DNA of 64,000 nt, from the NCBI RefSeq assembly GCF_056712565.1, contig NZ_CM160072.1; one strand, 5' to 3'. Below are positions 28,901-31,900 of this stretch, piece by piece. The first letter of the stretch is position 1. Every line of letters begins with the position of its first letter. The position numbers were made by a program.

Positions 28901-31900
28901 CGAAACCTTTGGTATCGGAGGTGCGGCAATGATCGCCGCACCTGGCGTAACGCGCTTTGTCGGTGCGGGTGGCATGGAAGCGGCCAGAGCGGTATCTGAA
29001 GAGATGGCGGAAATTTACCTTGAACGCAATATGCAATTGCAGATCCCCGGCTGGGATTTCCAGGGGGCGTGCCTGGGGCTGGACATTCGTCGCGTGGTAG
29101 AAACCGGCATTACGCCACTCATCAATACCGGTATCGCCCATAAAGAGGCGGGGATCGGGCAGATTGGCGCAGGCACCGTGCGGGCACCGCTGGCGTGCTT
29201 TGAACAGGCGCTGGAAGCACTGGCTGAAAGCATGGGGATTGGTTGAGGAACGCACAATGACGATCATCCATCCTCTACTTGCCAGCCGTAGCGCACCGAA
29301 TTATCGCCAGTCCTGGCGGTTAGCGGGAGTGTGGCGGCGGGCGATTAACCTGATGACGGAAAGCGGCGAACTGTTAACGCTGCATCGTCAGGGGAGTGGT
29401 TTCGGCCCCGGCGGATGGGTGCTTCGCCGCGCGCAATTCGATGCGTTATGCGGTGGATTATGCGGCAATGAACGACCACAGGTTGTGGCACAAGGGATTC
29501 GTCTCGGGCGTTTCACGGTTAAACAGCCACAGCGTTATTGTTTGCTACGTATTACGCCGCCTGCGCATCCTCAACCGCTTGCCGTTGCATGGATGCAACG
29601 CGCGGAGGAAACCGGGCTTTTCGGGCCACTGGCATTGGCGGCAAGCGATCCGCTGCCTGCTGAATTACGCCAGTTTCGTCACTGTTTTCAGGCCGCGCTC
29701 AATGGCGTTAAGACCGACTGGCGGCACTGGCTGGGTAAAGGCCCCGGATTAACGCCAAGTCATGATGACACGCTGAGCGGAATGCTGCTGGCGGCCTGGT
29801 ATTATGGCGCTTTAGATGCGCGCTCCGGTCGCCCGTTTTTTGCCTGTTCCGACAATCTTCAACTCGTTACCACTGCGGTGAGCGTCAGTTATTTACGTTA
29901 TGCCGCGCAAGGATATTTCGCCTCGCCACTCCTGCACTTTGTTCATGCTCTGAGTTGCCCGAAACGTACCGCAGCGGCGATCGATTCGCTGCTGGCGCTG
30001 GGGCATACGTCAGGGGCCGATACGCTGCTGGGGTTCTGGCTTGGCCAACAATTATTACAAGGGAAACCATGAAAACACTGGTTGTGGCTCTTGGGGGCAA
30101 CGCCTTACTCCAGCGCGGTGAGGCGCTGACGGCAAAAAATCAATATCGCAATATTGCCAGTGCTGTACCCGCGCTGGCGCGCCTGGCCCGTTCTTATCGG
30201 CTGGCGATTGTTCACGGCAACGGGCCGCAGGTGGGGCTGCTGGCGTTACAGAATCTGGCGTGGAAAGAGGTAGAACCGTATCCGCTGGATGTACTGGTGG
30301 CGGAAAGCCAGGGGATGATTGGCTATATGCTGGCGCAGGGCTTGAGCGCACAGCCGCAGATGCCGCCTGTCACGACGGTGCTGACGCGCATTGAGGTTTC
30401 GCCTGATGATCCGGCGTTTTTACAGCCAGAGAAATTTATTGGTCCGGTTTATCAGCCAGAAGAACAAGAGGCACTGGAAGCGGCTTACGGCTGGCAGATG
30501 AAACGTGATGGTAAATATTTACGCCGGGTGGTAGCGTCTCCGCAACCGCGTAAAATTCTCGACAGCGAAGCCATCGAGTTGTTGCTCAAAGAGGGGCATG
30601 TGGTGATTTGCAGTGGCGGCGGCGGTGTGCCTGTGGCGGAAGACGGGGCAGGGAGTGAAGCGGTGATTGATAAAGATCTCGCCGCTGCGTTGCTCGCCGA
30701 GCAGATTAATGCCGATGGACTGGTGATCCTCACCGATGCTGATGCGGTATATGAAAACTGGGGAACGCCGCAGCAACGTGCCATTCGCCGTGCCACACCG
30801 GATGAGTTAGCGCCATTTGCCAAAGCCGATGGTTCGATGGGGCCGAAGGTAACGGCGGTGAGTGGTTATGTCAGAAGCCGTGGTAAACCCGCGTGGATTG
30901 GGGCGTTATCGCGGATTGAAGAGACGCTGGCGGGCGAAGCGGGGACTTGTATTTCGCTGTAGTGATTGGGGTATTTGGCAAGAATTAAGGCTCTGAGAAA
31001 GATTCCAAACCCCAAATAAGAACGCGGACAGTCCCCTCGCCCCTGTGGGGAGAGGGTTAGGGTGAGGGGGAAAACTGCTTGCGCATTAGCTTTTAAGCAG
31101 GTTTGTGCACCAGGTTAACTGAACTTGCTCTGCGCCCACATCACGCCGCTGGCATACTCCGGCGGCAGCAGTGGGATTAAGGCTTCCAGCGTCGCGGTCA
31201 GACGCGATGTGTCGCTGTCGGTCAAATTCAAATGCCCCACTTTACGGCCCGGACGGACTTCTTTGTCGTACCAGTGCAGATGCACAAGCGGCAGTTTCAG
31301 CCAGTCATAATTCAGATCGCTACCAATCAGATTGATCATCACCGACGGATTATTCACTACTGGTTGCGGTAACGGCAGATCGGTAATCGCCCGCAGATGT
31401 AGCTCAAACTGGCTGATGCTGGCACCGTTTTGTGTCCAGTGCCCACTGTTATGCACACGCGGAGCCAGTTCGTTGATCAGCAGACCTTGCGGCGTGACAA
31501 AACACTCCATCGCCATCACGCCCACATAGCTCAGCTCCTGCATAATCGCCGACAACATCTCTTCAGCTTGCGCCTGTTGCTGTGCATTGGCCTGCGGGAA
31601 AGCGACGCTGGTGCGCAAAATGCCGTTCTGATGCAGGTTATGCGTCAGCGGATAAAACACGGTGCTGCCATCAAAGCCGCGCGCGCCAACCAGCGACACT
31701 TCACCTGAGAAGTTTATGCCCTGCTCGACAATACATTCGCCGTAGCATTCAGCCGGTAACTGTTCGGTTTCATCGGCGCGTAAACGCCATTGACCGCGTC
31801 CGTCATAGCCACCAGTGCGACGTTTAACAATCGCCAGCTCACCTAAACGATCAAACACCGCAGGCCACTCGCTGTGTTCGGAAAGTAACTGCCACGGTGC

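What the first reader, a model, noticed from the sequence alone, without database searches (positions are those of the whole stretch)
30963..31110. GC-rich palindromic element between ybcF and purK
The 150-bp convergent intergenic region contains nested inverted repeats (ttggggtatttgg ... ccaaaccccaa; cccctcgcccctgtggggagaggg) that do not match the REP units seen elsewhere in the window. It may be a bidirectional terminator or a member of another small repeat family.
Basis: seen in the sequence. Interest (0 to 1): 0.2.

Follow-up and report, generated by a model that had tools for sequence, protein, structure and literature searches.

The report
A known BoxC repeat copy
The GC-rich palindrome between ybcF and purK is one copy of BoxC, a small scattered E. 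coli repeat known since 1992 and also called the PIT or TMECO triplex motif; this exact copy is already in a published catalogue, so the finding is ordinary.

Summary
The 152-bp convergent ybcF/purK spacer (30963-31114) is real, and so is its GC-rich palindrome. The core, 31034-31069 (CCCTCGCCC-CTGTG-GGGAGAGGG-TTA-GGGTGAGGG-G), fits the published BoxC/PIT/TMECO consensus exactly (type "A mm"). It differs by one loop base from three K-12 copies. It is listed as TMECO no. 60 (UTI89 562046-562081) in Holder et al. 2015. Similar cores occur at a median of 19 places per E. coli genome. The rest of the spacer is single-copy. The two palindromes sit side by side; they are not nested. The whole block is found in only 237 of 5,426 complete genomes (ST95-like B2 strains and a second group). 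The six other genomes read in detail carry REP/BIME arrays of 126-533 bp at this spot. Nothing supports a terminator role: there is no U-tract, fold energies are no better than shuffled sequence, the literature reports no terminator activity for the family, and in K-12 the adk transcript reads through a same-orientation BoxC. The most likely reading is a structure-prone, function-poor repeat sitting in a swappable intergenic block. One point is unexplained: the block is nearly invariant while its flanks differ by about 3%. Novelty: already known. Interest: low.

The parts
30963..31114 (.). The whole ybcF/purK convergent spacer (152 bp), the 'BoxC allele' of this spacer. About 135 nt (30967 to roughly 31101) replace the REP/BIME array seen in other E. 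coli.
   Evidence: This configuration is present in 237 of 5,426 genomes. Seven other strains have BIME arrays here.
30966..31015 (+). The left arm and loop are single-copy sequence. The right arm lies in the stretch that resembles the 5' flanks of other BoxC copies.
   Evidence: Folds at -12 kcal/mol with z = -0.7 to -0.9 as RNA (-1.55 as DNA), no better than shuffles. Region 30963-31022 is single-copy and occurs only in the 237 carriers. Overlap with the family flank.
31006..31033 (+). Stretch 5' of the core that resembles the flanks of other copies (CAAACCCCAAATAAGAACGCGGACAGTC). Compare the family pattern ...gATGaCAAAnnnCAAAAAnGnGCnCGGACnGTC.
   Evidence: An alignment of 13 other type-A copies anchored on the core shows 8 of the 10 bases before the core matching the consensus of the other copies, and 6 of the next 10. 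blastn hits in other genomes start at query position 44-51, which is window 31006-31013; one K-12 copy (gntP-fimH) starts at 30988.
31034..31069 (+). BoxC/PIT/TMECO core, type 'A mm'. C block 31034-42 (CCCTCGCCC); loop 31043-47 (CTGTG); G block 1 31048-56 (GGGAGAGGG); loop 31057-59 (TTA); G block 2 31060-68 (GGGTGAGGG); then G at 31069.
   Evidence: Exact match to the consensus CCCTCNCCC-N3-6-GGGNGAGGG-N3-GGGNGAGGG. 35 of 36 bases match K-12 TMECO nos. 7, 11 and 15. Listed as TMECO no. 60, UTI89 562046-562081 (coordinate mapping). Median of 19 places per genome.
31047..31070 (+). Canonical G-quadruplex motif (GGGG-AGA-GGG-TTA-GGG-TGA-GGGGG) formed by the two G blocks. It is a possible alternative fold for the G-rich strand.
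   Evidence: Regex scan. For the full oligonucleotide, Holder et al. 2015 favour a triplex over a G4 on NMR evidence.
31054..31067 (+). 14-nt segment (GGGTTAGGGTGAGG) deleted in strain E7-1N7. One G block is lost, leaving a plain hairpin. The deletion looks like slippage between the two direct GGGNGAGGG blocks.
   Evidence: Pairwise alignment of the window with L026.
31070..31075 (+). Short conserved 3' tail of the family unit (GAAAAC; family consensus GAAcAG).
   Evidence: Anchored alignment. blastn hits end at query positions 107-111.
31075..31100 (-). Small AU-rich hairpin (CUGCUU/AAGCAG). On the purK strand it is followed by UUUU (31074-31071). It is a weak candidate for the purK transcript end and is single-copy sequence.
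   Evidence: Fold of -8.6 kcal/mol, z = -1.0. The terminator scan did not call it. No matches outside the carriers.

Best explanation
The GC-rich element is one copy of the BoxC family of dispersed intergenic repeats of E. coli, also published as PIT elements and as TMECO, the E. coli G/C-rich intrastrand triplex motif.

It consists of one C-rich block followed by two G-rich blocks. The single strand can therefore fold as either of two hairpins. In vitro, according to the literature, the G-rich strand forms a purine-motif intrastrand triplex. The same strand also carries a G-quadruplex motif.

It encodes nothing, and no promoter-like site or canonical terminator was found in or around it.

At this locus it sits in a roughly 135-nt block that, in about 4% of E. 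coli genomes, takes the place of the REP/BIME array found in the seven other strains read here (six sampled from across the ranking of all genomes, plus K-12).

My committed reading has three parts:
1. It is a structure-prone, largely function-less repeat carried in the 3' untranslated regions of both convergent genes.
2. At most it acts as a passive stem-loop that may slow 3' exonucleases, as REPs do (inferred).
3. Its DNA-level tendency to misfold and slip contributes to local turnover. The G-block deletion seen in one strain is an example.

The block is present in several lineages. This is best explained by whole-spacer allele exchange through homologous recombination in the flanking genes, not by transposition (inferred).
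For: Identity:
- Exact fit to the published consensus, with 0.00 matches expected by chance.
- 35 of 36 bases match K-12 copies nos. 7, 11 and 15.
- The same sequence at the same position is catalogued as TMECO no. 60 in UTI89 (mapped).
- The 61-nt core region matches 5,425 of 5,426 genomes at a median of 19 places each.
- Flank similarity to 13 other copies.
- The K-12 copy next to fabI (envM) ties TMECO to the original BoxC description.

Not a gene or a known RNA:
- No Rfam match and no promoter-like sites.

Not a terminator:
-.

Locus turnover:
- BIME arrays of 126-533 bp in seven other strains.
- 237 carriers in at least two flank groups.
- A 14-nt G-block deletion in one carrier.
- At adk-hemH the BoxC allele is likewise a whole-block swap with no target-site duplication.

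Literature:
- Triplex formation in vitro but not detected in vivo, and higher variability around TMECO loci.
Against: - No function has ever been shown for the family, so 'largely function-less' rests on negative evidence.
- The 152-nt block shows 0-1 substitutions across five haplotype backgrounds whose flanks differ by about 3% right up to its edges. That is not what unconstrained filler of the same age as its flanks would show. It needs either a recent spread or constraint.
- The Term-seq support is thin. Informative 3' ends exist at only two K-12 BoxC loci. The other 11 loci checked have no 3' end in the 100-nt coordinate bins searched around them, which may simply reflect low expression.
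- No transcript data exist for this locus in a strain that carries the block.
Confidence: 0.8

Rival explanations
1. Bidirectional transcription terminator, or 3'-end stabiliser, for the convergent ybcF and purEK transcripts. In this reading the BoxC hairpin and its two flanking hairpins stop RNA polymerase or block 3' exonucleases from both sides.
For: - The element lies in a 3'-to-3' spacer.
- Three consecutive predicted stem-loops: BoxC at -22.4 kcal/mol on + and -18.6 on -; the whole spacer at -49 and -45 kcal/mol, with z = -2.2 on the purK strand.
- The small hairpin at 31075-31100 is followed by UUUU on the purK strand.
- In other strains the same position holds REPs. REPs are known from the general literature as 3' stabilisers.
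Against: - No U-tract follows the BoxC hairpin on either strand. The terminator scan gives 1 trivial site against 0.9 expected.
- Fold energies are within the range of shuffled sequence.
- Hoyne & Maher 2002, as cited by Holder et al. 2015, found no terminator or promoter activity for these elements.
- K-12 Term-seq places the adk 3' end at 497939/40, 60 nt past a same-orientation BoxC, and the gcvP 3' end before its BoxC.
- The single variable stem position shows no compensatory change across 24 copies.
Confidence: 0.12
2. A functional non-B DNA element. In this reading the G-rich strand forms an intrastrand triplex or G-quadruplex in vivo during replication or transcription. That stalls polymerases and promotes recombination or mutation as a selected 'variation generator'. 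This is the proposal of Holder et al. 2015.
For: - A perfect three-block purine-motif arrangement, with all nine positions of the two G blocks compatible with third-strand pairing, plus a canonical G4 motif.
- Triplex formation in vitro by CD and NMR, and higher sequence variability around TMECO loci.
- This spacer is hypervariable across E. coli, and one carrier has lost exactly one G block.
Against: - In vivo DMS footprinting and double-stranded CD/NMR did not detect the triplex.
- The variability at this locus lies mostly in REP/BIME copy number in strains that lack the BoxC.
- Among carriers the block is unusually invariant rather than unstable.
Confidence: 0.15
3. A small non-autonomous mobile element (MITE-like, or moved by a transposase supplied in trans) that inserted site-specifically into, or in place of, the BIME in several lineages independently.
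For: - The block is identical in five divergent flank haplotypes, with the nearest differences only 4-16 nt (left) and 5-34 nt (right) from its edges.
- The family is multi-copy and its copy number varies greatly between strains: 1-2 strict copies in ST95 strains against 23 in K-12 and 30 in strain W.
Against: - The block has no terminal inverted repeats and no target-site duplication at its edges (sequence read directly).
- About 80 nt of the block is single-copy sequence, not repeat.
- The K-12 adk-hemH BoxC allele is also a whole-block replacement without duplication.
- Replacement of whole intergenic regions through recombination in flanking genes is a known phenomenon (from my own knowledge: Oren et al. 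2014 PNAS; Thorpe et al. 2018, Piggy). It explains the pattern without mobility.
Confidence: 0.07

Closest known systems
BoxC, also called PIT element or TMECO (E. coli G/C-rich intrastrand triplex motif). References as cited in PMC4666352: Bergler et al. 1992; Hoyne et al. 2000; Hoyne & Maher 2002; Holder et al. 2015.
   Same: Exact three-block consensus with the type-A TTA loop and the 'mm' G/A mismatch. Intergenic location. Conserved flank GGACnGTC on the 5' side and GAAnA on the 3' side. Many dispersed copies in E. coli. This very copy appears in the published catalogue.
   Different: Nothing in the core apart from one loop base (CTGTG against CTTTG). The locus is lineage-restricted (4% of genomes). 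In ST95-type genomes this is the only, or nearly the only, intact family member. It is embedded between two single-copy hairpins.
REP/BIME elements (repetitive extragenic palindromes)
   Same: Short GC-rich palindromic intergenic repeats, typically at gene 3' ends. The seven other E. coli strains read here have a REP/BIME array in exactly this spacer.
   Different: No sequence similarity to REP consensus cores. BoxC has a three-block architecture rather than a simple palindrome. I know of no link to RAYT transposases, IHF or gyrase for BoxC.
Intrinsic (Rho-independent) bidirectional terminators
   Same: A GC-rich stem-loop in a convergent spacer.
   Different: No flanking U/A tracts. The family shows no terminator activity in published assays, and K-12 3'-end maps show read-through.
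RSA (about 152 bp) and ERIC/IRU (about 127 bp) repeats
   Same: Small intergenic enterobacterial repeats. The 152-bp spacer length happens to equal the RSA length.
   Different: The full 152 bp is single-copy and absent from K-12, which has 6 RSA and 19 IRU copies. Only the BoxC part of about 60-70 nt is repeated.
Bacterial G-quadruplex motifs
   Same: The G-rich strand has four G3+ tracts separated by 3-nt loops.
   Different: An adjacent complementary C block competes for pairing. Published NMR on the full oligonucleotide favours a triplex over a G4.

Membership tests
BoxC / PIT / TMECO | Three-block consensus CCCTCNCCC-N3-6-GGGNGAGGG-N3-GGGNGAGGG | tested here: met
   Exact match at 31034-31068 on the + strand, with 0.00 expected by chance. 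Consensus taken from PMC4666352.
BoxC / PIT / TMECO | Subtype features: second loop TTA (type A); one mismatched position between the C block and the first G block ('mm') | tested here: met
   Loop TTA at 31057-59. C-block G6 against block-2 A4 is a mismatch, and against block-3 T4 is a G-T wobble, as in 16 of 24 copies.
BoxC / PIT / TMECO | Strictly intergenic location | tested here: met
   Lies between the ybcF stop and the purK stop.
BoxC / PIT / TMECO | Multiple dispersed copies in E. coli genomes | tested here: met
   The 61-nt query matches 5,425 of 5,426 genomes at a median of 19 places per genome, up to 34. ST95-like carriers have only 4-6 blastn places and 1-2 strict copies.
BoxC / PIT / TMECO | Conserved sequence beyond the 36-nt core (the roughly 56-bp BoxC unit) | tested here: met
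   Anchored comparison with 13 other copies: 8 of the 10 bases 5' of the core and 6 of the next 10 match the consensus of the other copies, and the 3' tail GAAAAC is present. blastn hits span window 31006-31073.
BoxC / PIT / TMECO | Listed in the family's published catalogue | tested here: met
   Holder et al. 2015 supplementary table, no. 60: NC_007946 562046-562081, identical sequence. The coordinates map to window 31034-31069 through.
BoxC / PIT / TMECO | Forms an intrastrand purine-motif triplex in vitro | not testable with these tools
   The block arrangement is compatible: G-G, A-A and T-A third-strand contacts at all 9 positions (sequence read directly). Biophysics was done on sibling copies only.
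REP / BIME | REP consensus core (GCCGGATGCGGCG / GCCTGATGCGACGC ... CTTATCCGGCCTAC) | tested here: not met
   No REP-like core in 30963-31114. The same patterns do hit the BIME alleles of six other strains and K-12, and REP sites elsewhere in the window.
Intrinsic terminator | GC-rich stem-loop followed immediately by a U-run (at least 5 of 8) | tested here: not met
   Only one trivial 5-bp site found, against 0.9 expected. The BoxC hairpin is followed by GGAAAAC on + and by ACUGUCC on -. The small hairpin on the purK strand has only UUUU.
RSA / ERIC(IRU) | The whole unit of about 127-152 bp repeated several times per genome, including K-12 | tested here: not met
   The full 152 bp is found once per genome in 237 carriers only. 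K-12 matches only the BoxC part.
Any Rfam RNA family | Covariance-model match at or near the gathering score | tested here: not met
   Best match scores 19 bits against a gathering score of 40 (a eukaryotic antizyme frameshift element), E = 0.28.

The most novel reading that the evidence does not exclude
The roughly 135-152-nt block (BoxC unit plus two single-copy hairpins) may be a discrete unit under constraint, or may be actively exchanged. It is essentially invariant in five E. coli haplotype backgrounds whose flanks differ by about 3% up to within 4-34 nt of its edges. That could mean it spreads as a cassette that displaces BIMEs by a mechanism other than ordinary homologous recombination, or that the whole block, including its non-repeat parts, has a selected role at the purEK/ybcF 3' ends. 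Either would be the first functional or mobility evidence for BoxC.
Probability: 0.1. Interest if true: 0.45.

Novelty: already known. Interest (0 to 1): 0.1.

Why it matters
As found, it matters little. The element belongs to a repeat family described in 1992, studied in 2000-2002 and 2015, and this exact copy is already catalogued. Its practical use is annotation: the element should be labelled BoxC/TMECO and not called a terminator.

Two modest points are worth keeping:
- In ST95-type uropathogenic and avian-pathogenic genomes this is the only, or nearly the only, intact BoxC in the whole chromosome. It sits at a site where the seven other strains read here have REP arrays. That makes it a clean natural case for asking whether BoxC does anything, by comparing isogenic BoxC and BIME alleles.
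- The block is much less diverged than its flanks. This is a small, testable population-genetic puzzle about how intergenic alleles spread.

Tried and rejected
- **Known RNA family.** The Rfam scan of 30700-31400 at a permissive E-value gave only sub-threshold chance hits.
- **Promoter or terminator.** The scan found no promoters, and the one trivial terminator-like site is at shuffle expectation.
- **Exceptional secondary structure.** RNA and DNA folds of the whole spacer and of each of the three hairpins on both strands gave z = -0.3 to -2.2. They are stable but not exceptional for this composition.
- **More copies in the window.** None found, even with 3 mismatches or a looser two-block pattern.
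- **The left 60 nt as a repeat.** It is single-copy and present only in the 237 carriers.
- **Origin of the single-copy left part in another species.** A 20-mer scan of one genome per species gave one chance hit in a Latescibacterota MAG that does not extend beyond the 20-mer. The origin remains unknown.
- **RSA or ERIC identity.** Rejected, because K-12 matches only the BoxC portion.
- **Small protein.** The two short ORFs that overlap the spacer (30862-30996 on +, 30866-31015 on -) run out of frame across the ybcF 3' end. I treated them as spurious and did not test them further.
- **Simple insertion with target-site duplication.** Neither this locus nor the K-12 adk-hemH BoxC locus compared with an 'empty' strain shows clean insertion boundaries. 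Both are whole-block replacements.
- **Compensatory base changes supporting a selected RNA hairpin.** The only variable stem position shows no double compensatory change. A MAFFT alignment of the 36-nt cores misplaced the gaps, so I replaced it with a regex-based block comparison.
- **Term-seq look-ups at further K-12 BoxC loci.** No curated 3' ends were found there. This is uninformative rather than negative.
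Full report
**1. The observation**

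The window is E. coli. Region 30763-31314 is 100% identical to ATCC 11775, UTI89, S88, UM146, APEC O18 and many other strains.

The finding lies in the convergent spacer between ybcF and purK. ybcF encodes a carbamate kinase on the + strand, with its stop codon at 30960-62. purK is on the - strand, with its stop at 31115-17. The spacer is 30963-31114, 152 bp.

- TTGGGGTATTTGG (30966-78) pairs with CCAAACCCCAA (31005-15) as 7+4 bp with a 2-nt bulge.
- CCCCTCGCCCC pairs with GGGGAGAGGG with one mismatch.

They lie side by side; they are not nested. One is a third block, GGGTGAGGG (31060-68), which pairs with the C block better than the second block does. The other is a third small hairpin at 31075-31100.

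Predicted folds are stable: -49 kcal/mol on the + strand and -45 on the - strand for the spacer, and -22 and -19 for the core. They are not exceptional for this base composition, with z-scores from -0.3 to -2.2. The three-block core, by contrast, is far beyond chance, with 0.00 matches expected. REP units do exist elsewhere in the window, at about 1294-1379 and 63227-63309, and the element does not resemble them.

**2. What it is**

The core, 31034-31069, reads CCCTCGCCC-CTGTG-GGGAGAGGG-TTA-GGGTGAGGG-G. This fits exactly the consensus CCCTCNCCC-N3-6-GGGNGAGGG-N3-GGGNGAGGG published for TMECO. TMECO is the E. coli G/C-rich intrastrand triplex motif, which its authors equate with BoxC (Bergler 1992) and with the PIT elements of Hoyne and Maher (PMC4666352).

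It is subtype "A mm": TTA in the second loop and one mismatched position. It differs by a single loop base from K-12 copies nos. 7, 11 and 15.

The same sequence at the orthologous position is listed in that paper's supplementary catalogue as TMECO no. 60, UTI89 562046-562081. It appears again in APEC O1.

A 61-nt query around the core finds similar sequence in 5,425 of 5,426 complete E. coli genomes, at a median of 19 places per genome.

I retrieved 13 other type-A copies and aligned them anchored on the core. The Table 1 coordinates of the paper match NC_000913.3. The set includes the copy next to fabI (envM), where BoxC was first named. Family similarity extends about 20-35 nt to the 5' side (...gATGaCAAAnnnCAAAAAnGnGCnCGGACnGTC) and 5-14 nt to the 3' side (GAAcAGgcc). 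This agrees with the roughly 56-bp BoxC unit of the older annotation and with blastn hits spanning window 31006-31073.

The left 60 nt (30963-31022) is single-copy and found only where the whole block is found. No match to the right end extends past 31073-31084 outside the carriers.

Rfam has no match. No promoter-like site is present. The block is not RSA or ERIC, because K-12 matches only the BoxC part.

**3. The locus**

Only 237 of 5,426 genomes (4.4%) have this 152-bp spacer. I read the spacer in six other genomes, sampled from across the ranking of all matching genomes, and in K-12. All seven have REP/BIME arrays of 2-10 REPs here, 126-533 bp long. The alleles share only TGAT after the ybcF stop (in most strains) and about 8-12 nt before the purK stop. 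The BoxC allele is therefore a roughly 135-nt block replacement.

Carriers fall into two main groups. About 124 have flanks at least 99% identical to the window; these are ST95-like B2 strains such as UTI89, S88 and the APEC O1/O18 strains, and also ATCC 11775. About 112 have flanks 97.3-98% identical, for example AR_0067 and an O102:H6 strain.

According to the published catalogue, ST95-type genomes have only 1-2 strict TMECOs. This copy is the only one in UTI89, UM146, IHE3034 and PMV-1. K-12 has 23 and strain W has 30.

One carrier, E7-1N7, has lost 14 nt (31054-31067). That is exactly one G block, and the loss looks like slippage between the two direct GGGNGAGGG blocks.

**4. How it most likely works**

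Shown directly:
- The element is a member of a dispersed non-coding repeat family.
- Its strands can fold into two alternative hairpins.
- The G-rich strand has the block arrangement needed for a purine-motif triplex, and it also carries a canonical G4 motif at 31047-31070.

From the literature:
- Sibling copies form the triplex in vitro, but it was not detectable in vivo.
- They show no promoter or terminator activity.
- Their surroundings are more variable than control spacers.

New support against the terminator reading comes from K-12 Term-seq data (Adams et al. 2021, supplementary file 1).
- The adk transcript carries BoxC no. 6 in the same orientation as ybcF carries this copy. It ends at 497939/40, which is 60 nt beyond the BoxC, at a canonical hairpin-plus-U terminator. 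No 3' end is recorded at 4978xx.
- The gcvP transcript ends at 3046123, at a canonical terminator before BoxC no. 11.
- Eleven further BoxC loci have no curated 3' end in the 100-nt coordinate bins searched around them. This is weak evidence, since the genes may simply be poorly expressed.

Here, no U-tract follows the BoxC hairpin on either strand. Only the small single-copy hairpin at 31075-31100 is followed by UUUU on the purK strand. It is weak, at -8.6 kcal/mol.

The one variable stem position in 24 copies shows no compensatory change. That argues against a selected RNA helix.

My committed reading is a structure-prone, largely function-less repeat lying in the 3' UTRs of both genes. At most it is a passive exonuclease barrier, as REPs are (inferred). 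Its DNA-level slippage contributes to local turnover. The identity carries a confidence of about 0.97. The full statement, including mechanism, carries about 0.8.

**5. An unexplained point**

Five carrier haplotypes were compared: the window, AR_0067, FDAARGOS_1285, 2021CK-01784 and E7-1N7. Their flanks differ pairwise by about 3% over 3.2 kb on the left and 1.6 kb on the right. The nearest differences lie 4-16 nt and 5-34 nt from the block edges. Yet across all four comparisons with the window the block has only two substitutions and one deletion.

On a star tree I expect about 12 substitutions in 152 nt. The Poisson probability of seeing two or fewer is about 5e-4 (my own calculation from the counts).

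Flank haplotypes follow lineage, not allele. The window's flanks are closest to those of a B2 strain that carries a BIME (RIVM_C029670). FDAARGOS_1285 has a B2-like left flank for about 1 kb but not a B2-like right flank.

The simplest explanation is a young, rare allele spread by homologous recombination, with later recombination eroding the flanks. Switching of whole intergenic regions in this way is a known phenomenon (from my own knowledge: Oren et al. 2014; Thorpe et al. 2018). B2 genomes are otherwise almost free of BoxC and other B2 strains have BIMEs here, so import into the ST95 ancestor from a BoxC-rich lineage seems the more likely direction (inference).

At a second BoxC locus, K-12 adk-hemH, the comparison with a strain lacking the BoxC also shows a whole-block swap: 157 nt against an unrelated 53 nt, starting 1-2 nt after the adk stop, with no target-site duplication. 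That speaks against simple transposition. Constraint on the block, or a cassette-type exchange, cannot be excluded. I give that about 0.1.

**6. Comparison with what is known, and verdict**

Every feature of BoxC/PIT/TMECO membership that could be tested here is met. The defining features of REP/BIME, intrinsic terminators, RSA/ERIC and Rfam families were tested and not met.

The element and this very copy are already in the literature, so the novelty class is "already known" and the interest is low (0.1).

Noticed in passing
window 32716-33223 (ORF 32784..33113, - strand): The purE-lpxH spacer is about 420 bp longer than in K-12, AR_0067, SW070912 and other strains. It carries a 109-aa hydrophobic ORF, annotated as 'hypothetical protein' WP_001188438.1 in ATCC 11775 and RIVM_C029670. 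No Pfam hit reaches its cut-off. It looks like a B2-restricted insertion.
   Followed up: partly
ybcF-purK spacer in other strains: L005-L010; L002 1834-2027: In the seven other E. coli strains read (six sampled genomes plus K-12), this spacer is a BIME array whose REP count varies from 2 to 10 (126-533 bp, roughly 100-bp period). It is a copy-number-variable locus in its own right.
   Followed up: partly
L026 (strain E7-1N7), equivalent to window 31054-31067: One carrier has a 14-nt deletion that removes exactly one G block. The triplex motif becomes a plain hairpin, and the deletion looks like slippage between the direct GGGNGAGGG repeats.
   Followed up: partly
window 30963-31114 compared with L023-L026: The 152-nt block has 0-1 substitutions in each of the four other carrier haplotypes compared with the window. 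The five haplotypes' flanks differ pairwise by about 3% up to within 4-34 nt of the block edges. Unexplained.
   Followed up: partly
Holder et al. 2015 supplementary table (read): ST95-type genomes (UTI89, UM146, IHE3034, PMV-1) have a single strict TMECO, and it is this copy. K-12 has 23 and strain W has 30. B2 strains are almost free of the family.
   Followed up: partly
window 31047-31070 (+) and 28776-28798 (+): Two canonical G-quadruplex motifs occur in the 64-kb window. One is formed by the BoxC G blocks and includes GGGTTAGGG. The other lies inside the ylbE coding region.
   Followed up: no
window about 1294-1379 and about 63227-63309: Ordinary REP/BIME units are present at both ends of the window.
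   Followed up: no
plasmid collection hits H245, H247, H250: BoxC-like cores occur on some genuine E. coli plasmids, for example NZ_AP023207.1 (93.8 kb), and in many copies on Sinorhizobium, Rhizobium and Azospirillum replicons. The 2015 paper stated that the motif was not found on plasmids. Several 'plasmid' records of over 1 Mb in that collection look like mislabelled chromosomes.
   Followed up: no
L013 1801-2075 compared with L030 181-351 (adk-hemH spacer): About half of E. coli genomes carry, after adk, a 157-nt block made of BoxC plus a canonical terminator. The rest, judged from the one short allele read (STE15), carry an unrelated 53-nt hairpin block. The breakpoint is 1-2 nt after the adk stop and there is no target-site duplication.
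   Followed up: partly
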